Under the pieces are notes generated by a model. It was not told the origin of the DNA. It searched no databases and saw only the letters and a list, made by a program, of their open reading frames with translations. A stretch of DNA of 61,108 nucleotides. Source: a virus. Of the stretch, positions 2,770-60,950 are shown piece after piece. The stretch lies in IMG/VR virus record IMGVR_UViG_3300045988_115760; one strand, given 5' to 3'. How positions within the stretch are numbered: position 1 is the first letter of the stretch; each line of letters opens with the position of its first letter. The position numbers were made by a program, and so were the translations under genes.

Positions 2770-3924
2770 TTAGCGGCAGGTCACCACGTCGCCCGGGTAG
2801 TAGACGTTGATGTTGCCGGAGGGGACGGTGCAGCGGTTGACGCTGTAGCCGTGTGAGGTGGCGAAATCCCATACCGTGTCACCGTACTGGATGGTCTTGG
2901 AGACCCCATCGGACGGTGCGGGGGCGGAGCCCCCGCCGTAGGTGACGACATCGCCCACGTAGTAGCGGTTGATGTCGCCGCTTGGCGTGTGCCATGCGGA
3001 CAGGGGCCATGCGTTGTAGGCTACGGCGAGTCCCCAGATGGTTTCTCCCCACTGCATGACGTGGCTGATGCCACCCGTGTTGGTGTCGGCCGGGGGAGTG
3101 TTCGGCTGTGCGGGCGCGGCCGGTGTGGCCGGGGGCGTGGAGCCGCCGGCGGGGTTGGCGTACAGGTCCCACTGCCATGCGTCGCCACGGAAGATGTTGA
3201 GGTCGATGGGACTCCACGTGTTGACGACACCGGTGCCGCTGTACTGGCGCATGGCCTCGCCGTACGCGCCGATCATCCACGGGTCGGCCTGATAGCCGGT
3301 CGGGCTCATGTTCGCGTATTGGGCGATCCACAAACCGTATCGGTCGCGGATGTCCTGCGGGATGGTGCCGGCGACCGGGCCGGTGTACAGCAATGGGCGC
3401 ACACCGCCCGAGAGCCGTTCACACTCAGCCATGAAGCGGCGTACCCAATCCCAGTCGCCCCATGCGGGGTTGTCGTCCATCTCCCAGTCAAGGGCGACGA
3501 TGCCGTGACGCCAATAGTTCAACGTGTTGGCGTAGAAGAACCGGGCCTCGGCCTCGGGGTTGCCGCCCATGGCGTAATGGTAGAGGCCGAACCGTTTGCC
3601 GGACGCCTGCGCCTGGGCGATCATGCGGTTGGCGTCCGTGTTGACGCCGGACACGAGACAGTTGTTATACACCTGTCCCGTGCCCCATGTGGTGCCGACC
3701 ACGATAAAATCGGCCTGCATGTTGTACACGTCCGCGCCGCACTGCCAGTTGCTCATGTCCACGCCCTGCATGTCCGCGTGCGCGGTCGCAGGGAGCGTCA
3801 GCATGCACACGGCGGCGACGAGCGCCGTGACTTTGGCGAGCAGCCGCTTATACCATGGTTTCGGCTTGCTTTTGTTTTTGAACTTGCCCAAATTCGTTTT
3901 CCTTCCTTTGTGTTGGGTGGGCAT
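2770..3924 (-). CDS. Endolysin: N-terminal signal peptide, GH25 muramidase domain, two C-terminal LysM-like repeats
   Basis: Basic N-terminus, then LVAAVCMLTLPATAHA. GH25-like GVDMSNWQ...DFIVVG...GLYHY...LDWE. Repeats QWGETIWGLA...YYVGDVVTY and QYGDTVWDFA...YYPGDVVTC. Confidence 0.88.
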   Translation of the reverse strand: MPTQHKGRKTNLGKFKNKSKPKPWYKRLLAKVTALVAAVCMLTLPATAHADMQGVDMSNWQCGADVYNMQADFIVVGTTWGTGQVYNNCLVSGVNTDANRMIAQAQASGKRFGLYHYAMGGNPEAEARFFYANTLNYWRHGIVALDWEMDDNPAWGDWDWVRRFMAECERLSGGVRPLLYTGPVAGTIPQDIRDRYGLWIAQYANMSPTGYQADPWMIGAYGEAMRQYSGTGVVNTWSPIDLNIFRGDAWQWDLYANPAGGSTPPATPAAPAQPNTPPADTNTGGISHVMQWGETIWGLAVAYNAWPLSAWHTPSGDINRYYVGDVVTYGGGSAPAPSDGVSKTIQYGDTVWDFATSHGYSVNRCTVPSGNINVYYPGDVVTCR

Positions 3925-27672: not shown

Positions 27673-27971
27673 TCCTCTTCCTTCCGACGCTCCCTGTTCT
27701 TACGACGCTGTTCGGCGGACTCCTGACAGGTTTTCTGCTCGTGATGGTATTGGCACAGGGATTGCAGGTTCTCGGAGGAGTCATCGTCATGCGACGGGTT
27801 GCGAACCTTGTGATCCACTTGATTGGCCGGACGGCCACAGATATGAGTGAAACCGAACTCGTCGGTCACCGGCCACTGGCAGCGATGATGGTCGCGCTCC
27901 AATATCAGCTTGCGAGTCCGCTCCCAACCCGGATTGAACCGTTCCCTGCGATTCGAACTCGACCAAGCCAT
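27633..27971 (-). CDS. HNH endonuclease (start at MAWSS; RBS aaggag upstream)
   Basis: RDHHRCQ...VDHKV...NLQSLCQYHH motifs; classic HNH-TerS-TerL arrangement of cos phages. Confidence 0.85.
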   Translation of the reverse strand: MAWSSSNRRERFNPGWERTRKLILERDHHRCQWPVTDEFGFTHICGRPANQVDHKVRNPSHDDDSSENLQSLCQYHHEQKTCQESAEQRRKNRERRKEEEWYSHPAYRRTVS

Positions 27972-28061
27972 GACGACTCCTTGATAAAGGGGACGGTGCC
28001 GTCCGTTGCGCAGCATAAGCAGCGAGAGAAAGGACGTGTTCTGCGGTCGGACGGCACCTAG

Positions 28062-28135
28062 AGGCAATGGCCGGACTCGAACCGGCGACCTGACGCTTAC
28101 GAGGCGTCCGCTCCACCAAACTGAGCTACAATGCC
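28062..28135 (-). tRNA. tRNA-Thr (anticodon CGT)
   Basis: Cloverleaf read by hand: acceptor ggcattg/cattgcc (one T-T mismatch), D arm gctc-agtttggtg-gagc, anticodon arm gacgc-ctCGTaa-gcgtc, T arm gccgg-ttcgagt-ccggc. Confidence 0.85.
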
Positions 28136-28258
28136 ATGCCTCCCACTAGAGGAAGGCTATTCAGTTATTGCCGTACGGCATGGCGTGAAGCCGCCGCCGG
28201 CGACTGGCGATGACTGAGAAGCTGTCACCGCCAAGAGCTGCCTCTTCTCAAGGCATCG

Positions 28259-28330
28259 CATACCCGGGAAGAATCGAACTTCCGTAACCGGTTTTGGAGA
28301 CCGGTGCCTGAACCACTCGGCCACGGGCAT
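28259..28330 (-). tRNA. tRNA-Trp (anticodon CCA)
   Basis: Anticodon arm ccggt-ctCCAaa-accgg, T arm ggaag-ttcgatt-cttcc, acceptor atgcccg/cgggtat. Confidence 0.75.
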
Positions 28331-28377
28331 ATAGGTCGTAATATTTCGCTCGTCAGACGTCCGACCAGCCGTCTCCG

Positions 28378-28462
28378 CGGAGAGAGTGGGAGTCGAACCC
28401 ACACGCCCGTAAGGGCAGACTGTTTTCGGAACAGTTGCCGCCGCCAATCGGCTGGCCTCTCC
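28378..28462 (-). tRNA. tRNA-Ser (anticodon CGA), class II, with non-canonical C8 and C33
   Basis: Acceptor ggagagg/tctctcc, anticodon arm actgt-tcCGAaa-acagt, variable arm gccc-ttac-gggc, T arm gtggg-ttcgact-cccac. Confidence 0.6.
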
Positions 28463-28593
28463 AAATCTCGCAATGCGCCGCACGAATATAATGCGACGAT
28501 CTCCGGGCGCTACCCGACGTTCTCTGCGACCGGGACCCCTAGGTATTCAGCCCCAGTCCTAACAACCAGATATTTGGCACTACATTGCGATTG

Positions 28594-28671
28594 TGGCGGC
28601 AGGGAGAATCGAACTCCCATTGCCAAAGGCAGTCGGGTTACAGCCGACGCGCACTCCACGTGCCTACCGCC
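28594..28671 (-). tRNA. tRNA-Tyr (anticodon GTA) with 13-nt variable region and an unusually short D arm
   Basis: Acceptor ggcggta/tgccgcc, anticodon arm gtcgg-ctGTAac-ccgac, T arm gggag-ttcgatt-ctccc. Confidence 0.7.
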
Positions 28672-29006
28672 AGACCCCGATTGTGGCGCGACCCGTAGGT
28701 CATCCACCCCCAGCCCCTACGTAGCAGACCAGATCGGGAAAACAAAGGCCGCTTCATAGAAACGACCCAGGAAACTCCTTCTACGACATGTAGATGAGCT
28801 AAGAATTGCGAGGTGGTGGATTGCGTTTTACCACCAACGCCGAGCATGTGATGCACTAACCGTGTACCGCTGTAGCGTTCCTCGTCACACTTCCCCCGCT
28901 AAAGGGTGCCGCTAAGCCGTGACGCAGCCTTAACCCGGCATACATGCAATCCGGGTTTATTCAGCCAACCTCATAAAGCACCAAGGGAGCGACCCTCGAT
29001 ACTTCG

Positions 29007-29098
29007 CGGACGGTGCGAGATTCGAACTCGCGGAACGCCAAAACGACGTTCGGCGGCTTAGCAAGCCACTGCAATCAACCGGACTCTGCCAACCGTCC
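29007..29098 (-). tRNA. tRNA-Ser (anticodon GCT), class II
   Basis: Acceptor ggacggt/accgtcc perfect, anticodon arm gtggc-ttGCTaa-gccgc, 7-bp variable stem gaacgtc/ggcgttc, T arm gcgag-ttcgaat-ctcgc. Confidence 0.85.
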
Positions 29099-29161
29099 AC
29101 ACCGCGCCCCGGTTCAAGAAACGACACCAACACTGTCTGTTGATGTGATCTAAAGGCACGG

Positions 29162-29198
29162 CAAAAACAAAACCCCGACGCCAATGGCATACGGGGTG
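29162..29198 (-). terminator. Intrinsic terminator on the minus strand, just upstream of the tRNA array
   Basis: Minus strand reads accccg-tatgccattggcgt-cggggt, followed by tttgtttttg. Confidence 0.6.
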
Positions 29199-29270
29199 AA
29201 TAATAATTTGTCAGGAATCTGAACCTTGCTCCAATCCCCGACAATCCATCTACACGACAGTTTACTCATA

Positions 29271-29294
29271 ACAAGCGTTGCAACAAGCGTTGCA
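29271..29294. repeat. Tandem 12-mer acaagcgttgca x2 (a related ccgttgcaa lies at about 29325)
   Basis: Read directly; lies between the two minus-strand terminators; candidate promoter or operator element. Confidence 0.8.
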
Positions 29295-29364
29295 CAGAAA
29301 CCGGAAAAGACCACAGCCCGAAAACCGTTGCAATCATTGGTGCGACACACCATGTCACGCTAAT

Positions 29365-29404
29365 TCAAAAAAGTCTGGGAGCGGCATTCACGGGCGAAAC
29401 CAGA
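29365..29404 (-). terminator. Intrinsic terminator on the minus strand, closing the CA-rich non-coding block
   Basis: Minus strand reads gtctgg-tttcgcccgtgaatgccgctc-ccagac, followed by ttttttgaatt. Confidence 0.55.
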
Positions 29405-29454
29405 CACCTAGCGGCCAAATGTTTAATGGGTGCCGGTACCCCTCTCCGCCCCTA

Positions 29455-29775
29455 TATAGGCGTGTCGTGGTGGGGTGTGGTGGTATACGCGCGGCCGTAT
29501 GTGGTTGCGAGTATGGCCGTGGCCGTGGCCGTGACGCGGCTATCCGTGTTGCCTAAGCGTGAGCGTGACGTGAGTATGACGTGGTGATCGTACTGTACGG
29601 CCGTCCTGGCCGTCTCGTGTCCCTCTCCGTCTATCCGTCCGTGTGAGTCCGTCACGTGGTGGTTTGCCTCTATGTCATGCTTGTGCGTGGGTGGAGAATG
29701 ATAGTCGTGTGGTGTGGTTTGTCAAACTTGGCGTGTCGTGGCTTAGGTTTGCGATGTTGAGTGTGGTGGGCTCGG
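29455..29775. other. ORF-free, strongly strand-skewed block (GT-rich on +, CA-rich on -) with repeated GTGGTGG and ggcgtgtcgtgg motifs
   Basis: GTGGTGG at 29467, 29477, 29656, 29763; variants at 29581 and 29708; ggcgtgtcgtgg at 29459 and 29730; ggccgt x3 at about 29515. Confidence 0.8.
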
Positions 29776-29799
29776 GTTTTGTTCCCGATATTTCTTATT

Positions 29800-29811
29800 G
29801 AGAATATTCTC
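29800..29811. promoter_or_regulatory. Perfect 12-bp palindrome gagaatattctc in an AT-rich divergent control region
   Basis: Self-complementary sequence read directly. Confidence 0.6.
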
Positions 29812-29826
29812 GTTAAACCTTTATTT

Positions 29827-29845
29827 GGTATATAAGGTATATACC
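29827..29845. promoter_or_regulatory. ggtatata-a-ggtatatacc: duplicated TATATA boxes and a 10-bp palindrome; candidate -10 elements or operator
   Basis: tttggtatataaggtatatacc; the first copy has a TG-n-TATATA extended -10 appearance. Confidence 0.45.
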
Positions 29846-30004
29846 CGCGATTTTACGTCGTGAATCGTAAGTTTCGACACGCCGAGTGAAGCTAGTGTTT
29901 GCAATGGTTTACGGGTGGTTCAATCGCTACTGACTTGCGTTCCAGTATTGGACCGCGTATAGTGATAGCCATCAACCACGGAACACCAAGAAAGGAACCC
30001 CGAG

Positions 30005-30199
30005 ATGAACACCACGGAGATTAAAGCCAAAGCCTTTAGAGCGGCGGTAGACCTGGCCACGGTATGCAAGCCCTGCACCTATGACAACGTGCTGGACATC
30101 ACGGCCATAGCCCTCGGTATCGAGATGGACGACAACGAGGAATACCCCGCCGAGCTCTACCGCAAGTTTGACCGAGTGTGGGCCGAGCTCAACTACTGA
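30005..30199 (+). CDS. Hypothetical small acidic protein (64 aa)
   Basis: RBS aaaggaa upstream of the ATG; first gene of the rightward block. Confidence 0.6.
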   Translation: MNTTEIKAKAFRAAVDLATVCKPCTYDNVLDITAIALGIEMDDNEEYPAELYRKFDRVWAELNY

Positions 30200-30201
30200 C
30201 A

Positions 30202-30245
30202 GCGCCGCCGATAGGCGGGTACTGGGTTCGAGTCCCAGCGGCGCA
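30202..30245 (+). ncRNA. tRNA-like minihelix A (acceptor-like stem + T arm; no D or anticodon arms)
   Basis: gcgccg...ctggg-ttcgagt-cccag-cggcgc-a. Confidence 0.45.
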
Positions 30246-30475
30246 CGAAGTCCCGGTGATAGGTGAGAGCTATCCCGAGTGACATGAGAGTTTGAGAATT
30301 GAATAGTGTTACCGATACCCAGTCAAGGACTGGTGAGGGATAATGAAGCAAGGCAGAGGTCTTGCGAGTAGTGCGGGGGCCGCTGAGAGAACGCGGCGCG
30401 ATGGCATCAGAAACTCCGTCTGCGAATAAGCCAAAGGTATAATTAGGCCCACTGAAACAGATAGCGAGGTGGGCC

Positions 30476-30721
30476 ATGGACTACAGGGAATTGCAAGACA
30501 GCAAGAATCTGGATAATCAACAGTTAGCCGATAAAATCGGCATACCTCGTACCACGGTATCCAAGTACAAGAATGGGCATCTCGATACAAAAAACATGAC
30601 GTTAGAGATGGCCGTTAAATGGTTACGTGCGTTGGGGCGGCGCAAGATGGCTAACGATTTATCCGAGATGTTTGCGCTTGCTGAGGCTCCTAGTGAGCCG
30701 AAAGAAAGCGCCGCCGAGTAG
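30476..30721 (+). CDS. XRE-type helix-turn-helix protein (81 aa)
   Basis: NQQLADKIGIPRTTVSKYKNG is a typical HTH segment. Confidence 0.7.
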   Translation: MDYRELQDSKNLDNQQLADKIGIPRTTVSKYKNGHLDTKNMTLEMAVKWLRALGRRKMANDLSEMFALAEAPSEPKESAAE

Positions 30722-30745
30722 GCGGGCGCGTGCCCTATGAATCTT

Positions 30746-30794
30746 TGCGTAGGCCGGTTAGCGGCTTAATCGGGTGCAAGTCCCGACTACGCAC
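30746..30794 (+). ncRNA. tRNA-like minihelix B (7-bp acceptor-like stem, one small hairpin, T-like arm)
   Basis: tgcgtag-gccggttagcggc-ttaa-tcggg-tgcaagt-cccga-ctacgca-c. Confidence 0.5.
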
Positions 30795-30829
30795 GACGGT
30801 GGCTAGAATCTAGTCGCCTGAACGTAAAT

Positions 30830-30859
30830 GCCCCATGAGTACCGCAAATACTCATGGGG
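30830..30859 (+). terminator. 12-bp-stem hairpin (possible terminator with a weak U-tract), followed by a second hairpin at 30871..30890
   Basis: gccccatgagta-ccgcaa-tactcatggggc; then ggcggtac-catt-gtaccgcc. Confidence 0.45.
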
Positions 30860-30922
30860 CTGACCTTTATCTAGCTGAAAGGCGGTACCATTGTACCGCC
30901 TCACATGGAAGTGAGGACTATC

Positions 30923-31507
30923 ATGCGTAAGAAGTTTGTTGCGGCTGTTGCCGCGTTCGCCGCCCTGTGCGGCATGGTGTCGGTTCCAGCCAATGCCGCC
31001 GAGACTACTCAGCCTATCCGTGAGGACGTTACCCCTCACGTGCTGGTTCCGATACCAGTGCCGGAATCCGAGCCGGTCAGTGAGCCGGAACCGGTGAATG
31101 TTGACGCTCTCGCCGCCGCTGTTATCCGTGGTGAGTACGGTGACGGTGAGGCGAGGCGTGCCGCTCTCGGTGATAATTATGACGCTGTACAAGCGCGGGT
31201 TAACGAGTTGGTGCCGGTTGCCGCGCCGGTTGTCAGCCAGTCGGTACAGTCCGCGCCGGCGCAGTCGGTGCCCCAGGCCGCGCCGCGATCCTACACATTT
31301 GAGGACGTCTACAATCTTGCCGTCAACTCGCCCTACTGCGAGCTCGAAGACGGTTCCGACCTGCCGCAGTGCTATTGGCATGACGGTGCGGGCGACGGGA
31401 GCGAACCGCCTTACACGGATATCGTCTATATGCCTGACGGTTACGGGTACCAAGCTCATGAGGACACCATGACGGTGAGCGTATTCGCGCGTAACCCGTG
31501 GCTGTGA
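30923..31507 (+). CDS. Secreted protein with a CW_7-type peptidoglycan-binding motif (start at MRKKF)
   Basis: Signal peptide MRKKFVAAVAAFAALCGMVSVPANA; AAAVIRGEYGDGEARRAALGDNYDAVQARVNEL matches the Cpl-7 repeat pattern; RBS gtgagga. Confidence 0.7.
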   Translation: MRKKFVAAVAAFAALCGMVSVPANAAETTQPIREDVTPHVLVPIPVPESEPVSEPEPVNVDALAAAVIRGEYGDGEARRAALGDNYDAVQARVNELVPVAAPVVSQSVQSAPAQSVPQAAPRSYTFEDVYNLAVNSPYCELEDGSDLPQCYWHDGAGDGSEPPYTDIVYMPDGYGYQAHEDTMTVSVFARNPWL

Positions 31508-34805: not shown

Positions 34806-35090
34806 ATGGGTAAGCTGGTAGCCAATATCGATGATGATGTCAAGGCGCGTGCCGCCGCGCTCTACGATTCCATGGGCATGAGCCTGAGCACCGCCGTCAA
34901 CATGTTCCTACGCCAGTCTCTGGTGGACAACGGGTTGCCGTTCAAGCCGACGCGGCACACGCCGGACGGTTATCCGGTGCCGCCTGTTCACAATGCATAC
35001 ATGTTCGAGCGTTCGGAGAAGGGCCATGTGATACTGCCCGCCGATTGGGATGATTCGGAGGATGATGTCTATGACCAGTACGCCAAGTGA
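34806..35090 (+). CDS. RelB/DinJ-family antitoxin (94 aa)
   Basis: LSTAVNMFLRQSLVDNGLPF matches the DinJ ribbon-helix-helix C-terminal helix pattern; strong RBS aaggagg. Confidence 0.72.
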   Translation: MGKLVANIDDDVKARAAALYDSMGMSLSTAVNMFLRQSLVDNGLPFKPTRHTPDGYPVPPVHNAYMFERSEKGHVILPADWDDSEDDVYDQYAK

Positions 35091-35439
35091 ACCGCGCCTG
35101 TATGACGTGTGGCTGATGTGGGTCGAGTTTCCCGACCATCCCGGTATCGGGAAGCCGCGTCCGGTGGTTATCACCGAGGTTGACGGTGATCTGGTGTCGG
35201 GTATCGTGGCGAAGATAACCGGCAACACTGATTGGGATGAGGCCGGTGACGTGCCGCTGCTCGACTGGAAGGCCGAGGGGCTGTTGAAGCCGTCACTCGT
35301 GCGCTGTTCGCAACGCTTCTACTTCAACAGGAGCGAACTGCTGCAATGGTTCGGACGACTCTCGTTGAGGGACGCGGAGCATGTTAACGACGGATTGGAA
35401 GCCACGTTGGACATTCCACCATACAGGCGGAGCGTATAG
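35071..35439 (+). CDS. MazF/PemK-family toxin (122 aa; start at MTSTPS, overlapping the antitoxin by 20 nt)
   Basis: YDVWLMWVEFPDHPGIGKPRPVVIT matches the PemK N-terminal pattern (GD-W-V-F-P..G.E..K.RP.V.). Confidence 0.72.
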   Translation: MTSTPSEPRLYDVWLMWVEFPDHPGIGKPRPVVITEVDGDLVSGIVAKITGNTDWDEAGDVPLLDWKAEGLLKPSLVRCSQRFYFNRSELLQWFGRLSLRDAEHVNDGLEATLDIPPYRRSV

Positions 35440-36173: not shown

Positions 36174-36397
36174 TTACCGCTGTCTACCGTTATGAGCGTT
36201 TCGACCCGGCCACGAACACGGAACTGTGGCGACGCATACCCGGCTGGAGGTTGCGTCTCATGTGGCTTCAGGCATGGGTAAAGCGCGATAAGGCGGCTCG
36301 AATCTCATATCGGGCTTGGCTGTACGCGAATGCTTCGGGCGGCGGTCAATGGTTGGCCGCTGACATGTTGGACTGGAATCAGGAGGTAATCAAATGA
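36170..36397 (+). CDS. Hypothetical protein (75 aa)
   Basis: ATGA overlap with the upstream gene. Confidence 0.5.
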   Translation: MITAVYRYERFDPATNTELWRRIPGWRLRLMWLQAWVKRDKAARISYRAWLYANASGGGQWLAADMLDWNQEVIK

Positions 36398-37149
36398 GCA
36401 TCGTATGCAAGACAATTAACACGACCGGCAAGCACCTGTATGGCGTCACGGTGGAAGCGTTTCTACGAAAGGGACTACCATATTTCAGTCTTATCGGATC
36501 ACCGGACGCAAGCCTATCCGATACGCGAGAGCGTATCAAGGTCGGAATGCAAGCAAGCGGTATCACATGGCCCGACTGTCGCATCAACGTGAATCTTGCG
36601 CCGGCGTCAATGGGCAAGGCTGACGGAATTTGTGACCTTGCCATAGCGTTGGTGGTTCGAGGGCTGGCTGAATACAATAATAATCCAGATTATGATCTCC
36701 ACGTCTACCTGGCTGGGCTTAGGGGGCTTGTGGCTATCGGCAAAATCAATGCCGATGGTGACGTGCATTCCACTCCCATTAGCGCCAAGGACGTAGTGGC
36801 CTACGCGGTTAAGCATGGCGCGAAGCGTGTCTTGGTGCCATACTCGAGCTTTCTGGACTATCTCAGCGTTGAGGATAGCGAGGCGACTGAGATTGATTCT
36901 TGCATTATAAAAGGCGTTGAAATTCTTGGCATTAAAAATCTGACCGAGGCTTTCTCAGTCGTTGACGGTTTCGGGAACGCCGGCAACTCGGATATCGGCG
37001 GTCTGAACGCCAAGCGTATGGAAGCTGCCTTGCATGAGGTGTGGAAATGGTATGACGAAGCGGGGGAGAGCGGGGAAAGCTATATGCTTGACCCGGATAA
37101 TCTCGCCAAGTTCGCCGCCAACCTATGCAAGGAATACGAAAAACACTGA
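36394..37149 (+). CDS. ComM/YifB (Mg-chelatase ChlI) N-terminal Lon-like domain protein, without the AAA+ module
   Basis: GLPYFSLIGSPDASLSDTRERIKVGMQASGITWPDCRINVNLAPASMGKADGICDLAIAL follows the ComM N-terminal pattern (GLP.F.IVGLPD....ES.ERV..A...SGF.FP..RITVNLAPAD..KEG..FDL.IA). Confidence 0.65.
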   Translation: MSIVCKTINTTGKHLYGVTVEAFLRKGLPYFSLIGSPDASLSDTRERIKVGMQASGITWPDCRINVNLAPASMGKADGICDLAIALVVRGLAEYNNNPDYDLHVYLAGLRGLVAIGKINADGDVHSTPISAKDVVAYAVKHGAKRVLVPYSSFLDYLSVEDSEATEIDSCIIKGVEILGIKNLTEAFSVVDGFGNAGNSDIGGLNAKRMEAALHEVWKWYDEAGESGESYMLDPDNLAKFAANLCKEYEKH

Positions 37150-53598: not shown

Positions 53599-53772
53599 CA
53601 GTCGGCGTCCTCCATGTTGAGTAGTCCCATACGGTCGAATGGGGTGAGTTCCATGATTGTTTCCCTCCACTGGGCTTGATTATTTGGTTGTCCTTCTACG
53701 CCGGTGCTGACACGTCCGAAACCCTTGTTTTGCTGGTTTCGACGCAGGACGCGAAGGGGTTAAATTTTCTGA

Positions 53773-53860
53773 GCGCCAAGCCGGGAGTCGAACCCGGTGC
53801 ACCTTGGAGAAGTCCATGACCATTGGAAGGCTTCGTAGGTGCGGCACCATGCGCTTGGCT
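53773..53860 (-). ncRNA. Aberrant tRNA-like element C (possible degenerate class-II tRNA; candidate anticodon GGT)
   Basis: Perfect T arm ccggg-ttcgact-cccgg; acceptor agccaag/cttggcg with an A-G mismatch at 1-72; 4-bp anticodon-like stem tcca-atGGTca-tgga; D region irregular. Confidence 0.4.
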
Positions 53861-53907
53861 GCCACCGGACGAGGAAGTAAAGGAATAAAGAACCCCGCCC
53901 GGAAGAA

Positions 53908-54807
53908 TCATTTGGGTTGGATGAGGGTGTTGGAGCCCTCGGGTGTGACGATCAGCTGGTCGGCATTCTGCAGGGCGTCGATGTAATGCTGCCGGAGCAC
54001 GTTGTCGGTCAGGGAATCGTTCAGCACCTTGTTGGCGTCGGCCTCGCCCTGCGCCTTGATACGTTTGGTCTCGGCCTTGGTCTTCTCGACCTCCTGCTCG
54101 TTCAACGCCTTCTGCTTGTCGATCTCGGCGGCCTGCGCCTCCGCGTACTTCGAGGTGATGGACTTCGGGTAGCGGACCTCCTGCACCGACACCTGTTCGA
54201 CGCGCAATCCCATGTCCTTCCATTTCGCGGTCAGGGTCTTCTGAATGGCGGCGGTGTACTTGCTGCGGTCGGTCAACAATTGGATGGTGTCGAACCTGCC
54301 GGAGACCTCGCGTGGCACGCTGCGCACGTCCACCGCCGCCACCGATTTCACGAACGTGGTCTGCTTGCCGTAGTCCTTGTACAGGTCCATCGCGTACTTC
54401 GGGTCGAGCGAATAGTTGACCTGGATGTCGATGTCCGCCTGCGCGCCGTTCTTGTCGTTGACGGTGACCTGCGGGCCCCGTGCGGAGCCGCCGTCGTAGT
54501 CCTCCTTGCCCTTGGCCACGTAGCTGATGACGTTGTTGCGGGTGTCGTATTTCACGGTGGACTGCCACGGGAGCTTGCCGTGGAAGCCCGCGTCGGCGGA
54601 ATAGCCGGCGATGGAGCCTCCCATGTTCTTCAACACGACGACCTCGCCCGCATCCTGCGAATACAGGCATGCGGGAATCATCAGCAGACCCGCCACGACG
54701 ATGAAGATAAGGCCGTCGCCCATGCCGTCGCCACCGTTGGCGAGTGCGACGACTATCATGCCGACTCCGATGAGCAGGAGTATTACGGCGAGTATGAACC
54801 AGATCAT
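53908..54807 (-). CDS. SPFH/Band-7 (prohibitin/HflK-like) membrane protein (299 aa; start at MIWFIL)
   Basis: N-terminal TM segments, then an SPFH-type core (VVVLKNMGG...QVNYSLDP...VEQVSVQEVRYP) and a coiled-coil Ala/Glu/Lys tail. Confidence 0.82.
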   Translation of the reverse strand: MIWFILAVILLLIGVGMIVVALANGGDGMGDGLIFIVVAGLLMIPACLYSQDAGEVVVLKNMGGSIAGYSADAGFHGKLPWQSTVKYDTRNNVISYVAKGKEDYDGGSARGPQVTVNDKNGAQADIDIQVNYSLDPKYAMDLYKDYGKQTTFVKSVAAVDVRSVPREVSGRFDTIQLLTDRSKYTAAIQKTLTAKWKDMGLRVEQVSVQEVRYPKSITSKYAEAQAAEIDKQKALNEQEVEKTKAETKRIKAQGEADANKVLNDSLTDNVLRQHYIDALQNADQLIVTPEGSNTLIQPK

Positions 54808-55034
54808 TTTTGTGTTCCTTTCGACAATGCGAACGAGAGCATGACGGGCGAACAGCACATGAAGCCTGCGAGAATGCTCCACGGGCCCGCATAGGGTTGC
54901 AGTGAGAGAATCAGGAACCCGGTCGCCGCCAACGTCAGACAAGTGATTGTCTTCGTGTTCTCATGCCGGTGCCGGCGTTCATCAGGTGAATGCTGCCAGC
55001 CGGAGCAGTGAGCCCCATACGTTTTCCTGTTCAT
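54804..55034 (-). CDS. Small two-TM membrane protein (76 aa) translationally coupled to the SPFH gene
   Basis: ITCLTLAATGFLILSL and WSILAGFMCCSPVMLSFAL; ATGA overlap with the SPFH start. Confidence 0.5.
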   Translation of the reverse strand: MNRKTYGAHCSGWQHSPDERRHRHENTKTITCLTLAATGFLILSLQPYAGPWSILAGFMCCSPVMLSFALSKGTQK

Positions 55035-59558: not shown

Positions 59559-60950
59559 TCACGCCTTCCATTCGATCTGCTTCAGACCGAGCTCGTCGCC
59601 TATCGTCTCCATGCCTCGCATCAAATCCTCTACCGGCACGGTGCGGTAATGCTCGCTCATTTCCACGGACGAATGGCCAACGATGCGTTGGATGATGCCG
59701 GGATCAACCTTCATGTGGAACAGGAGCGATACGACGGAATTGCGGCATTCATGCCCGTACCGGTTCTCGTAGTCGGGGATGCCCGCCCTGCGCATGAGGT
59801 CGCGGAAACCGGCCCTGTCATCCAACGCGGCCAACGGCATACCCTCGCGCGTCCTGAATATCAGGTTGTACGGGTTCGGGATGATATTCTCCGTGGCCTC
59901 CAGATACCGGTGCACGACGGTGCCCAACTGGGGGATTATCGGCACGACCTTGCCTCTCGCGGACTTCGGCGGCGTCAAAGCGTACCCCTTGCACAGGTGT
60001 ATCATGTCGTATCCGTCCGGCACCCTCCACCGGTATCGGGGGCAGCTCGAAGGCCGTTTGAAGCCGCACGGGTATCTTCCGTCCCTGCCGGGCTCCCCGC
60101 ACCCATGCTCCTTGTCGAGGCTTTCCAGTTTCCAGTTCACCGTGTAGGTGCCTATCCATATCTCGCCGCTGTCCGGGGTTTCCAACGTCTCGTCCCGCCA
60201 CAGGTCGAGATCGTCCAACGTGGCTCCCAGTATCTCCCCCTGCCTCATGCCGGTGAGCAGACGCCACCATTGGCGTGCCCCCAGAAACAGGTCGTCGGAG
60301 GACGCGTCGAGCATGTCCTGCATCTGCTCCACGGTGAACGCCTTGCGGTCCTGCGTGCCGCTGCGCCTGTCCGCCGACACGGCCACGGGCCCGTTGATGG
60401 TGCGCCGGTCCCCGGCCAATCCCGTGTCCCTGCGTTTCGGCCTTGCCGCGCTGGTGACCGGACTGGTGGGTATCAGCCGGTCGGCCACCGCCGCCTTGAA
60501 TATCTGGTTAAGGATGTTGTAGAAGCCAAGCTGCCGGTTGTACGAGCATGGGGTGCCGTCGAGGTTGCGCATGTTGGCTATCATGCGCTGCACCGCCGAG
60601 GCGGTCACTTCGCCCAGCTTCTCGTTCGCGTACTTGCACAGGTGCACGCTTATGAGGCTCGCGTAGTTGTTGATGGACTTGGGTTTCAGGTCGCGTCGTT
60701 TCAGCTCGAACCATCGTTCCGCGTACTCGCCGAGCCGGGTGGCGCGGTCTACGCCCATGCCCCATTCGGTTTTCTCCTTGAGGGCTTCGGCTATTTTCCT
60801 GTCGCATTCCTTGTAGGTCTTGGCGGACACCCATCGGCCGTCCACCTTGGCCTGCCAGTTCACGTATGTCTTTACCGTGCCGTCCTTGAGTGTTTTCCGC
60901 TGCTCGTGGCGGATGGGGTAGACCGCTCCGGTTTTCCTTATCCTAGGCAT
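59559..60950 (-). CDS. int: Tyrosine integrase (463 aa)
   Basis: C-terminal catalytic pattern HECRNS...IVGHSSVEMSEHY; lies adjacent to the repeat-rich att-like region. Confidence 0.9.
   Translation of the reverse strand: MPRIRKTGAVYPIRHEQRKTLKDGTVKTYVNWQAKVDGRWVSAKTYKECDRKIAEALKEKTEWGMGVDRATRLGEYAERWFELKRRDLKPKSINNYASLISVHLCKYANEKLGEVTASAVQRMIANMRNLDGTPCSYNRQLGFYNILNQIFKAAVADRLIPTSPVTSAARPKRRDTGLAGDRRTINGPVAVSADRRSGTQDRKAFTVEQMQDMLDASSDDLFLGARQWWRLLTGMRQGEILGATLDDLDLWRDETLETPDSGEIWIGTYTVNWKLESLDKEHGCGEPGRDGRYPCGFKRPSSCPRYRWRVPDGYDMIHLCKGYALTPPKSARGKVVPIIPQLGTVVHRYLEATENIIPNPYNLIFRTREGMPLAALDDRAGFRDLMRRAGIPDYENRYGHECRNSVVSLLFHMKVDPGIIQRIVGHSSVEMSEHYRTVPVEDLMRGMETIGDELGLKQIEWKA

What the first reader, a model, noticed from the sequence alone, without database searches (positions are those of the whole stretch)
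30196..30800. Two paralogous tRNA-like minihelices (acceptor stem + T arm, no anticodon arm) directly after two consecutive small genes
Two + strand elements fold by hand into an acceptor-type stem stacked on a 5-bp stem with a 7-nt T-loop-like loop. There is no D arm or anticodon arm, so they are not tRNA genes. Element A is 30202..30245: gcgccg / ctggg-TTCGAGT-cccag / cggcgc-a. Element B is 30746..30794: tgcgtag / gccg-gttag-cggc / tcggg-TGCAAGT-cccga / ctacgca-c. Both end ...cgca-cga. Both are preceded by the same box, agcgccgccga(g)taggcggg, a ccgcc-gNta-ggcgg hairpin. At 30201 the box lies after the stop codon; at 30706 it contains the stop codon. Conservation is therefore at RNA/DNA level, not protein level. 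The repeated unit [small gene][box][minihelix] suggests a functional RNA. Candidate roles are RNase P/Z processing punctuation, CCA-adding or aminoacylation substrates, decoys for acceptor-stem-targeting toxins, or tRNA-derived recombination cores. I know of no described phage element of this form.
Basis: partly seen in the sequence, partly recalled or inferred. Interest (0 to 1): 0.72.

Follow-up and report, generated by a model that had tools for sequence, protein, structure and literature searches.

The report
Anticodon-less tRNA mimics between prophage genes
A very common Bifidobacterium longum prophage carries short, conserved RNA elements between its genes that copy the top half of a tRNA but have no anticodon arm, most likely so that the cell's tRNA-trimming enzymes cut the phage messenger RNA at fixed points; no such phage element is in Rfam or in the papers I could search.

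Summary
Elements A (30201-30246, +) and B (30746-30794, +) are real and exceed chance. They are the only two strong matches in the window to a model built from them and their relatives.

Each has three parts:
- a 6-bp acceptor-type stem;
- a short D-arm-like hairpin;
- a canonical 5-bp T arm with a 7-nt loop.

There is no anticodon arm. Each ends in A-C, as the phage's own CCA-less tRNA genes end in N73-C74.

The window is a Bifidobacterium longum prophage. In 66 related contigs the gene before A is always followed, 2-7 nt after its stop codon, by A or by a third type, C. Stems keep pairing through compensatory and G·U changes, so this is an RNA of the coding strand. The D-like loop changes with the T-loop type exactly as it does in genuine tRNAs.

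Shorter relatives (types E/F/G) sit between genes in other actinobacterial phages. Neither element equals a tRNA 3' end elsewhere, and the integrase lies 29 kb away, so they are not att remnants.

Best reading (inferred, about 0.45): they are tRNA-mimic processing signals. RNase P and the 3' end/CCA enzymes would cut the mRNA there and release a 45-49 nt tRNA "top half". This is a new variant of a known kind, closest to plant mitochondrial t-elements, mascRNA and the YrlA tRNA-like domain.

The parts
30005..30199 (+). Small gene (64 aa, no known family) whose stop codon TGA lies 2 nt before element A
   Evidence: ORF list. Third-position GC 0.78. Exact protein found in B. longum AH1206 CP016019 and in 6236 blocks of the collection. 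No Pfam, PHROGs or PADLOC hit.
30201..30246 (+). Element A. A(-1) 30201; acceptor 5' 30202-30207; D-like hairpin 30208-30218; T arm 30222-30238 (loop UUCGAGU); acceptor 3' 30239-30244; A-C tail 30245-30246
   Evidence: Sequence. Fold. mascRNA-type Rfam alignment. CM score 69 bits. Identical or near-identical in more than 60 related contigs. Covariation.
30247..30475 (+). Non-coding stretch between A and the HTH gene. Partly conserved blocks, a TATAAT at 30437-30442, and a hairpin (GGCCCAC/GUGGGCC) over the ribosome-binding site. It travels together with the tRNA-like element
   Evidence: Read by eye. A promoter-like site at 30279-30307 is flagged. The minus-strand ORF 30193-30477 is not conserved in L067.
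30476..30721 (+). Xre/Cro-type HTH gene (81 aa)
   Evidence: Pfam HTH_3, E 7e-9. PHROGs transcriptional regulators.
30708..30729 (+). 'Box 2' hairpin GCGCCGCC-GAGUA-GGCGGGCGC, which contains the HTH stop codon
   Evidence: Fold. At the same place relatives have ACACUAGC/GCUAGGUGU or GCGACUCU/AGAGUGCGC, so the stem is replaced as a whole and keeps pairing.
30746..30794 (+). Element B. Acceptor 5' 30747-30752 (plus U30746-A30793); D-like hairpin 30753-30765; T arm 30770-30786 (loop UGCAAGU); acceptor 3' 30787-30792; A-C tail 30793-30794
   Evidence: Sequence. Fold. CM score 67 bits. Relatives L001, L016, L078 and L346 have T stem UCAGG/CCUGA, a compensatory change from UCGGG/CCCGA.
30798..30860 (+). 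Two hairpins after B: 30798-30818, and the 12-bp hairpin 30830-30860 (terminator-like)
   Evidence: Inverted repeat I4. Terminator scan, scored on the minus strand. The hairpin covaries in L001 and L016.
53773..53860 (-). Third, longer tRNA-like element (T3). A(-1); acceptor GCCAAG/CUUGGC; small D hairpin; long irregular central arm; T arm CCGGG-UUCGACU-CCCGG; G-C tail. Intergenic on the coding strand
   Evidence: (tRNA-Sec model 18 bits, weak). Conserved in 58 viral contigs, with a compensatory change in the central arm of L357 and L404.

Best explanation
A and B are transcribed as parts of the plus-strand mRNAs of a B. longum prophage. They fold into a mimic of the tRNA 'top half': an acceptor stem stacked on a T arm, with a short D-like hairpin that docks on the T loop to make the tRNA elbow. 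There is no anticodon arm.

Because they look like tRNA precursors, the host's tRNA maturation enzymes act on them. RNase P cuts at the 5' side of the acceptor stem. RNase Z or exonucleases trim after the A-C tail, and the CCA-adding enzyme completes the end.

The result is 'punctuation' of the transcript. The small upstream gene is separated from the downstream regulatory region and HTH gene (element A). The HTH message is separated from what follows (element B). A 45-49 nt tRNA-like RNA is released as a by-product, or possibly as a product in its own right.

Shown: the conserved, strand-specific tRNA-like structure and its intergenic position on the coding strand.

Inferred: transcription, every enzymatic step, and the consequence for gene expression.
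For: Structure.
- RNAalifold, run on a plain MAFFT alignment of 12 variants, predicts the same three-way junction. Six of its pairs have compensatory changes.
- On the model-fitted alignment, 97.6% of cells pair, against 36-45% when the partners are slid. No shuffle of 500 reaches the observed covariation score.
- Compensatory changes occur within single types: B has UCGGG/CCCGA versus UCAGG/CCUGA, and C has CUAGGG/CCCUAG versus CUGGGG/CCCCAG.

Strand.
- One-sided changes are G·U on this strand (L135, L119, L127, L170). On the other strand they would be A·C mismatches.

Elbow.
- Among 593 genuine tRNAs in the fetched loci, a UUCRA T loop goes with GG in the D loop in 277 of 279.
- A UGCRA T loop goes with no GG in 198 of 244, mostly with AG[CU]A instead.
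- The elements obey the same rule. A has UUCGAGU with AUAGG. B, C, E, F and G have UGCAAGU with UUAGC, AUAGU or CAGCAGAC.

Likeness to tRNA genes.
- The phage's own tRNA genes lack CCA but all read N73-C74 and then diverge. The elements end A-C-(G/U) in the same way.

Position.
- The elements are always on the coding strand and intergenic.
- A and C start 2-7 nt after a stop codon. F and G overlap the stop codon. E lies about 50 nt before the next gene.
- An element follows the small gene in all 66 relatives, even where the gene or the downstream module is exchanged.

Precedent.
- In an actinobacterium, the tRNA-like domain of M. smegmatis YrlA is cut by RNase P in vitro, and is cleaved and CCA-tailed in vivo (PMC4201824).
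- From established knowledge: acceptor/T-arm minihelices are substrates of bacterial RNase P and of CCA-adding enzymes.
Against: - There are no RNA data. Transcription, RNA ends and cleavage are all unobserved.
- The Watson-Crick acceptor stem is 6 bp in A and 5 bp in types E and F, with an A·A in seventh position. The stack with the T stem is therefore 11 bp rather than 12.
- The elements have A at position -1, whereas the phage's true tRNAs all have U.
- Fold energies are not significantly better than shuffles.
- Independent lineages are few. Differences between types A, B and C could have been inherited from different parent tRNAs rather than selected.
- Cleavage just after the stop codon (A, C) or inside it (F, G) would leave the upstream mRNA without a protective 3' structure. 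That is a cost, not an obvious benefit.
- A predicted promoter downstream of A would make separation by cleavage less necessary.
Confidence: 0.45

Rival explanations
1. The released mini-tRNA is itself the functional product. It would be a CCA-tailed acceptor/T-arm mimic acting as a decoy, sponge or cofactor for proteins that read the tRNA top half. Examples are defence or toxin enzymes that modify or cut tRNA acceptor ends, EF-Tu, tRNA-modifying enzymes, and aminoacyl-tRNA-dependent transferases. The flanking mRNA is only its carrier.
For: - The structure, the elbow rule and the A-C tail are conserved more strictly than a mere cleavage signal seems to need.
- An element is kept at this position while the genes on either side are exchanged.
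- The region is an opposite-strand island between the late and early genes that also carries a RelB/MazF pair, the sort of place where accessory and defence-related genes sit.
- The phage invests in tRNA biology: it has 4-5 tRNA genes and a third tRNA-like element.
Against: - No partner protein is identifiable. The neighbouring genes have no hit in PADLOC or Pfam that points to tRNA biology.
- There is no conserved acceptor-stem identity element beyond G1-C72, C2-G71 and A73.
- There is no evidence that the RNA accumulates.
- The tight placement against stop codons is not explained by a free-standing RNA.
Confidence: 0.2
2. The elements stay attached to the mRNA. They act as 3'-end-forming or stabilising structures, as a viral tRNA-like 3' end does, or as terminator or attenuator hairpins coupled to translation termination. 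RNase P does not remove them.
For: - They begin 2-7 nt after the stop codon, so a terminating ribosome must melt the acceptor stem.
- The 11-bp stack and A(-1) may make them poor RNase P substrates.
- B lies in the 3' UTR between two other hairpins.
Against: - No U-tract follows A or B, and the terminator scan finds nothing at A or B on the plus strand.
- A plain hairpin would do for stabilisation. Conservation of the T-loop sequence and of the D-loop/T-loop pairing rule points to recognition as a tRNA.
Confidence: 0.13
3. They are decayed tRNA genes that lost the anticodon arm, or scars at module junctions. They persist by hitch-hiking or serve only as DNA-level recombination points, with no RNA function.
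For: - They lie at boundaries where relatives switch modules: A versus C after the small gene, and B versus a different element after the HTH gene.
- tRNA genes lie 1 kb away.
- Differences between types could be inherited from different parent tRNAs.
Against: - Compensatory changes within single types, and one-sided changes that are G·U only on the coding strand, show selection on an RNA helix.
- The same architecture recurs in unrelated actinobacterial phages.
- A, B and C differ too much in sequence to support homologous recombination with one another.
- No fetched tRNA matches either half closely: the best is 4 mismatches in 24.
Confidence: 0.1
4. They are att-type remnants, that is, copies of the 3' half of a host tRNA gene left by integration.
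For: The T arm and acceptor 3' strand look like a tRNA 3' end. The prophage has a tyrosine integrase.
Against: - Each element carries its own complementary 5' acceptor strand and a D-like hairpin.
- The integrase (59559-60950) is 29 kb away.
- The 24-nt 3' halves of A and B occur in no other context in 241 million metagenome records. The test was for exact matches, and contexts with A before the T stem were excluded.
- The set of B. longum tRNA genes itself could not be fetched.
Confidence: 0.02

Closest known systems
Plant mitochondrial t-elements (tRNA-like acceptor/T-arm structures at mRNA ends; recalled from memory: Hanic-Joyce 1990, Forner 2007)
   Same: Acceptor stem plus T arm without an anticodon arm. 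Embedded in mRNAs next to coding regions. Thought to work by recruiting RNase P and RNase Z to define mRNA ends.
   Different: Organellar rather than phage or bacterial. No sequence relationship. The phage elements add a D-like hairpin or D-loop mimic that follows the tRNA elbow rule. Processing is untested here.
mascRNA / MEN-beta tRNA-like RNAs (Rfam RF01684)
   Same: This is the only Rfam model that A resembles, at 30.4 bits. It is a tRNA-like fold at the end of a longer transcript, cut by RNase P and RNase Z to form the upstream RNA's 3' end and release a small CCA-tailed RNA.
   Different: Vertebrate nuclear RNAs with a small anticodon arm. A scores below the gathering threshold of 42.5, and B does not hit at all. 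The resemblance is convergent, not membership.
tRNA-like domain of bacterial Y RNAs (YrlA), including mycobacteriophage copies (PMC4201824)
   Same: D arm, T arm and acceptor stem are mimicked. In the actinobacterium M. smegmatis the domain is cut by RNase P and CCA-tailed.
   Different: YrlA is a longer RNA with a Ro60-binding helix, encoded next to rsr. Here the 5' and 3' ends form the acceptor stem itself. There is no Ro-binding module, no Rfam Y-RNA hit, and no Ro60-sized ORF outside the structural genes.
tRNA-like domain of tmRNA
   Same: Acceptor stem plus T arm with a D-loop analogue and no anticodon arm. Types E and F, with a single-stranded 'CAGCAGACA' linker, look most like it.
   Different: No pseudoknots, no tag reading frame and no G3·U70 alanine identity pair. 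ARAGORN finds no tmRNA. The helix that interrupts the tmRNA domain is absent.
tRNA genes used as punctuation in operons and mitochondrial transcripts; phage and herpesvirus tRNA-like small RNAs (T4 species 1 and 2 RNAs, MHV68 vtRNAs; recalled from memory)
   Same: Transcripts are cut by tRNA-processing enzymes at tRNA-shaped sites. Viral tRNA-like RNAs may be CCA-tailed without decoding.
   Different: Those are full cloverleaves. These elements are 45-49 nt, lack the anticodon arm altogether and sit directly against stop codons.

Membership tests
tRNA gene (RF00005 / ARAGORN) | Cloverleaf with an anticodon arm and anticodon | tested here: not met
   ARAGORN finds only the four tRNAs at 28061-29098. 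Rfam's tRNA model gives no hit at A or B even at E up to 10. Only 3-4 nt lie between the D-like hairpin and the T arm.
tRNA gene (RF00005 / ARAGORN) | Acceptor stem, T arm with a U(U/G)CRA loop, and a D-loop partner for the T loop | tested here: met
   The D-loop/T-loop rule is shared with 593 genuine tRNAs.
tmRNA | tRNA-like domain plus tag-peptide reading frame and pseudoknots | tested here: not met
   ARAGORN reports no tmRNA. No Rfam tmRNA hit.
mascRNA-menRNA (RF01684) | Score at or above Rfam's gathering threshold of 42.5 bits | tested here: not met
   A scores 30.4 bits. B gives no hit.
t-element-like / tRNA-mimic processing signal (a functional class, not a sequence family) | Acceptor stem stacked on a T arm, lying within an mRNA next to a coding region | tested here: met
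   Structure with covariation. Intergenic, on the coding strand, 2-31 nt from stop codons.
t-element-like / tRNA-mimic processing signal (a functional class, not a sequence family) | Cleavage by RNase P at the 5' side and by RNase Z or exonucleases at the 3' side in vivo | not testable with these tools
   Needs RNA end mapping or in vitro cleavage. The 6-bp acceptor stem and A(-1) leave the outcome open.
Bacterial Y RNA (YrlA) | Ro60-binding helix formed by the RNA's ends, and a neighbouring rsr gene | tested here: not met
   No Rfam Y-RNA hit. The ends form the acceptor stem. The neighbours are a 64-aa protein and an HTH protein. Not every ORF of the window was scanned for a TROVE domain.
attP / tRNA 3'-half remnant | Identity to the 3' part of a host tRNA gene, next to the integrase or a prophage end | tested here: not met
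   Integrase at 59559-60950. No exact match of either 3' half in another context in the metagenome contigs. Best match among fetched tRNAs is 4 mismatches in 24. B. longum's own tRNA set was not available.
Intrinsic terminator | GC-rich hairpin followed by a U-tract on the transcribed strand | tested here: not met
   The scan finds none at A or B on the plus strand. The sequences after them are CGAAGUCCC and CGACGGUGG.
Cobalamin riboswitch (shares a GGUGCAAGUCC T-loop hairpin; recalled from memory) | Match to the Rfam Cobalamin model | tested here: not met
   No such hit in window 27800-31200 or 30150-30900, or at the type E locus L166.

The most novel reading that the evidence does not exclude
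Actinobacterial prophages encode a class of anticodon-less 'half-tRNAs'. [quoted passage not shown] Candidate targets are host abortive-infection or toxin nucleotidyltransferases and nucleases aimed at tRNA 3' ends. Alternatively they could be charged carriers for reactions outside the ribosome. On this reading they are a new kind of phage counter-defence or accessory RNA, not a mere cut site.
Probability: 0.18. Interest if true: 0.85.

Novelty: new variant of a known kind. Interest (0 to 1): 0.62.

Why it matters
If the elements are cut by tRNA-processing enzymes, this would be a clear case of tRNA-mimic 'punctuation' of mRNAs in a bacterial virus. That mechanism is well known from mitochondria and from MALAT1, but it is hardly documented in phages.

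The carrier is a prophage present in a large share of human-gut B. longum. Its neighbouring gene occurs in 6236 blocks of the sequence collection, so the idea is directly testable in a cultivable, medically relevant host.

The family also extends to Corynebacterium and other actinobacterial phages, and it is absent from Rfam. Gene callers and RNA annotators therefore currently miss it.

It also offers a natural set of minimal substrates, with 5-6 bp acceptor stems and with or without a D hairpin. These bear on what RNase P, RNase Z and CCA-adding enzymes need in vivo.

If instead the free RNA is the active part, it would be a new type of phage-encoded tRNA mimic.

Tried and rejected
- **DNA similarity to deposited phages.** blastn of 29900-30900 found nothing. 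The terminase is only 53% identical or less to anything there.
- **Search for the 64-aa gene in species-representative genomes.** No confirmed relative. The host was found instead through exact-protein look-up and a strain table: CP016019 is B. longum AH1206.
- **Rfam.** Gathering thresholds over the whole window, and permissive scans of three regions and of a type E locus, gave only tRNAs, a sub-threshold manA-like RNA and the sub-threshold mascRNA hit.
- **Folding energy as evidence.** Rejected; the z-scores are weak.
- **Minus-strand protein gene covering A (ORF 30193-30477).** Rejected. Third-position GC is 0.58, and the ORF is not conserved in L067.
- **Terminator reading.** Rejected; there is no U-tract.
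- **att remnant.** Rejected.
- **The 'box' as a shared upstream signal.** Rejected.
- **The pattern GGGTGCAAGTCCC...GCAC in genomes.** It mostly returns genuine class II tRNAs and what look like cobalamin riboswitches, so that T loop alone does not mark the family.
- **Neighbouring proteins.** They gave no functional lead.
- **Literature.** Five searches found no description of such phage elements. The Bifidobacterium prophage paper PMC6109161 treats other, roughly 40-kb prophages.
Full report
**What is there.**

The window is a prophage. Virion genes lie on the minus strand (2.7-27.7 kb). A minus-strand tRNA cluster lies at 28.06-29.10 kb. An island of plus-strand genes starts at 30,005. Early genes on the minus strand follow, and a tyrosine integrase lies at 59,559-60,950.

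The 64-aa protein encoded just before element A occurs with exactly this sequence in the chromosome CP016019. A strain table gives that accession as Bifidobacterium longum subsp. longum AH1206. The protein also occurs in 6236 blocks of the sequence collection, many of them human-gut assemblies. The element therefore belongs to a very common gut prophage.

**Check of the observation.**

Minimum-energy folding gives the described junctions. The energies are only 1.2 and 1.8 standard deviations better than shuffles, so thermodynamics alone proves nothing.

ARAGORN does not call them. Rfam offers only a sub-threshold mascRNA-menRNA hit for A. Its alignment is instructive: acceptor stem, D arm (CCG-AUAGG-CGG) and T arm are matched, and the anticodon arm is deleted.

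A simple detector looks for a T arm plus an adjoining acceptor helix, at least 11 stacked pairs, and no more than 27 nt between the strands. It finds two such elements in the window, against 0.1 expected. Two or more appear in 1% of 200 simulations.

A covariance model built from variants of A, B and C scores A at 69 bits and B at 67 bits. Nothing else in the window exceeds 15.4 bits.

The 'box' is indeed repeated. At A, however, it is simply the element's own 5' strand plus D-like hairpin.

**Relatives.**

Protein-guided searches of IMG/VR returned 31 and 66 related loci. After the 64-aa gene there is always a tRNA-like element. It is either A or a third type, C (AGCGCGGCCAUAGUGGCUAACGCUAGGGUGCAAGUCCCUAGUCGCGCAC). 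It begins 2-7 nt after the stop codon.

In L123 the 64-aa gene is replaced by an unrelated 79-aa gene. Type C, the following non-coding stretch and an HTH gene are kept.

After the HTH gene the picture differs. A hairpin that holds or abuts the stop codon is always present, but its sequence is exchanged wholesale: GCGCCGCC/GGCGGGCGC, ACACUAGC/GCUAGGUGU or GCGACUCU/AGAGUGCGC. Only a minority of relatives then have B. Most have a different structured leader in front of a toxin-antitoxin-like gene pair.

**Evidence for an RNA structure.**

RNAalifold, run on an ordinary MAFFT alignment of 12 distinct A, B and C variants, predicts exactly the acceptor / D hairpin / T arm junction. Six pairs keep pairing after changes on both sides.

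On a model-fitted alignment of 15 distinct sequences, 97.6% of cells pair, against 36-45% when the partners are slid. No shuffle of 500 reaches the covariation score. This alignment leans towards the structure, and the independent lineages are few.

Differences between A, B and C might be inherited from different ancestors. The changes within single types cannot be explained that way:
- B: UCGGG/CCCGA versus UCAGG/CCUGA.
- C: CUAGGG/CCCUAG versus CUGGGG/CCCCAG.
- One-sided changes that are G·U on this strand only: L135, L119, L127 and L170.

This fixes the functional strand as the coding strand.

**A wider family.**

A pattern search for the B/C-type T arm in IMG/VR brought in shorter elements in unrelated high-GC viral contigs. 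These are types E, F and G, for example AGCCCG-ACCAGCAGACA-CCCGGG-UGCAAGU-CCCGGG-CGGGC-AC.

I selected them by the linker motif and T loop, not by pairing, and aligned them without gaps. They show 92.6% paired cells and five pairs with compensatory changes, and no shuffle of 500 reaches their score. The unpaired cells are a one-base register shift in type G.

They too are intergenic on the coding strand. F and G overlap the stop codon of the upstream gene. E lies about 82 nt after one gene and about 50 nt before the next.

Type G occurs in a Corynebacterium yonathiae genome. Type E occurs in a genome labelled Xylanimonas cellulosilytica 352_XCEL.

**The elbow.**

Among 593 distinct tRNAs that ARAGORN finds in all fetched loci:
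- a UUCRA T loop goes with GG in the D loop in 277 of 279;
- a UGCRA T loop goes with no GG in 198 of 244, mostly with AG(C/U)A instead.

This sample is biased towards UGCAAGU loops. The elements follow the same rule:
- A combines UUCGAGU with AUAGG;
- B combines UGCAAGU with GUUAGC;
- C combines UGCAAGU with AUAGU;
- E, F and G combine UGCAAGU with a single-stranded CAGCAGACA or CAGCAUACA.

This is what one expects if the D-like segment docks on the T loop as in tRNA. It argues that the elements are shaped to be recognised as tRNA, not merely to be hairpins.

**Ends.**

None of the phage's own tRNA genes encodes CCA. All read discriminator-C and then diverge, and all have U at position -1.

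The elements end A-C-(G/U), so they look like CCA-less tRNA precursors of this phage. They have A at -1, however, and only 6 (A, B) or 5 (E, F) Watson-Crick acceptor pairs, which gives an 11-bp stack with the T stem. Alternatively one may count A·A as a mismatched 1:72 pair and C as the discriminator. The sequence cannot decide between the two readings.

**What it is not.**

- Not a tRNA or tmRNA gene.
- Not an intrinsic terminator; there is no U-tract.
- Not a minus-strand coding region.
- Not an att remnant. The integrase is 29 kb away. Each element has its own 5' strand. The 24-nt 3' halves of A and B have no exact match in any other context in 241 million metagenome records. The best match among fetched tRNAs has 4 mismatches. 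I could not obtain the B. longum tRNA set, so this last test is incomplete.

**Mechanism.**

I commit to tRNA-mimic processing signals at about 0.45. The transcript from the promoter region upstream of the small gene would fold into the mimic. RNase P would cut at its 5' side, and RNase Z or exonucleases plus the CCA-adding enzyme would finish the 3' side. The mRNA would thus be divided at fixed points and a 45-49 nt RNA released.

That promoter region rests on a TATAGT that I read by eye at about 29,959; the scan did not flag it.

The inference rests on three things:
- the structure and position shown above;
- established knowledge that acceptor/T-arm minihelices are substrates of these enzymes;
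- an actinobacterial precedent, in which the tRNA-like domain of M. smegmatis YrlA is cut by RNase P and CCA-tailed (PMC4201824).

The same paper stresses the importance of a 7-bp acceptor stem. That is the main reason for caution.

The rivals are:
- the free RNA as the active product (0.2);
- a retained 3' structure (0.13);
- functionless relics or junction scars (0.1);
- att remnants (0.02).

**Comparison and novelty.**

The closest known things are plant mitochondrial t-elements, mascRNA, the tRNA-like domains of tmRNA and YrlA, and tRNA punctuation in general. The elements work like these, as far as inference goes, but are members of none. No Rfam family reaches threshold, and five literature searches found no description.

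I rate it a new variant of a known kind, with interest 0.62. The structure and its spread are solid, and the carrier is common. The function is untested.

Noticed in passing
window 53773-53860 (-): A third tRNA-like element (T3) lies in the intergenic region after the 344-aa gene 53908-54942 (-). It has A(-1), a 6-bp acceptor GCCAAG/CUUGGC, a small D hairpin, a long irregular central arm, a canonical T arm and a G-C tail. ARAGORN does not call it, and Rfam hits are weak (18 bits). It is conserved in 58 viral contigs, with a compensatory change in the central arm of L357 and L404. The overlapping 398-aa ORF 53696-54892 (-) has third-position GC of only 0.40 and is probably not a gene.
   Followed up: partly
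window 28379-28462 (-): A fifth tRNA-shaped sequence lies in the tRNA cluster. It scores 35 bits on the tRNA-Sec model (below the gathering score of 47) and ARAGORN does not call it. It has a long variable arm and an anticodon loop reading CCGAAAA, with C at position 33 where tRNAs normally have U.
   Followed up: no
window 28805-28983 (-): A manA-RNA-like structure lies between the tRNA-Tyr and tRNA-Ser genes. It scores 48.3 bits (E 1.4e-10), just under Rfam's gathering score of 55.2.
   Followed up: no
window 30708-30729 (+); L011, L016, L021 around 3230-3260: The hairpin at the end of the HTH gene keeps its structure while its whole sequence is replaced in relatives. In this window its sequence happens to equal the 5' half of element A. 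Its role is unknown; a 3'-end hairpin, a protein-binding site and a minus-strand terminator are all possible. The terminator scan scores it on the minus strand.
   Followed up: partly
L067 3800-3960; L003, L011 and L022 downstream of position 3243: In most relatives B is replaced by a different conserved leader of three hairpins (for example GCCUGACUGUG...CACAGUCGGC, with covarying stems). It lies in front of an 88-aa plus 89-aa gene pair that looks like a toxin-antitoxin module.
   Followed up: no
window 30247-30475 (+): The non-coding stretch after A shares conserved blocks with the otherwise different stretch after type C. These include UUGAKAAUUGAAUAGUGUU, a TATAAT box, and a hairpin GGCCCAC/GUGGGCC that covers the ribosome-binding site of the HTH gene. 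It may be a regulated leader or a small RNA.
   Followed up: partly
L100, L115, L166, L144, L151, L215, L270, L324 and about 25 more loci: Shorter anticodon-less tRNA mimics (types E, F, G) have a 5-bp acceptor, an 11-nt D-loop-like linker and a 6-bp T stem. They sit between genes in unrelated actinobacterial phage contigs and prophages, including Corynebacterium yonathiae. Type E is preceded by a conserved roughly 80-nt segment that contains a hairpin with an A-rich loop.
   Followed up: partly
all fetched loci (593 ARAGORN tRNAs): Genuine tRNAs with a UGCRA T loop nearly always lack the D-loop GG and carry AG(C/U)A instead. This looks like an alternative elbow pairing, common in class II tRNAs of Saccharibacteria, Verrucomicrobia and phages.
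   Followed up: partly
window 34806-35439 (+): A RelB antitoxin / MazF (PemK) toxin pair lies in the same plus-strand island. A ChlI-like ATPase domain protein lies at 36394-37149.
   Followed up: no
L220, L222, L238, L241, L295, L329 (Cyclobacteriaceae, Chryseolinea): The same GGGUGCAAGUCCC hairpin occurs in what look like cobalamin riboswitches (GUGCCC...GGGAA...GGUGCAAGUCC). That identification is from memory and was not tested with Rfam.
   Followed up: no
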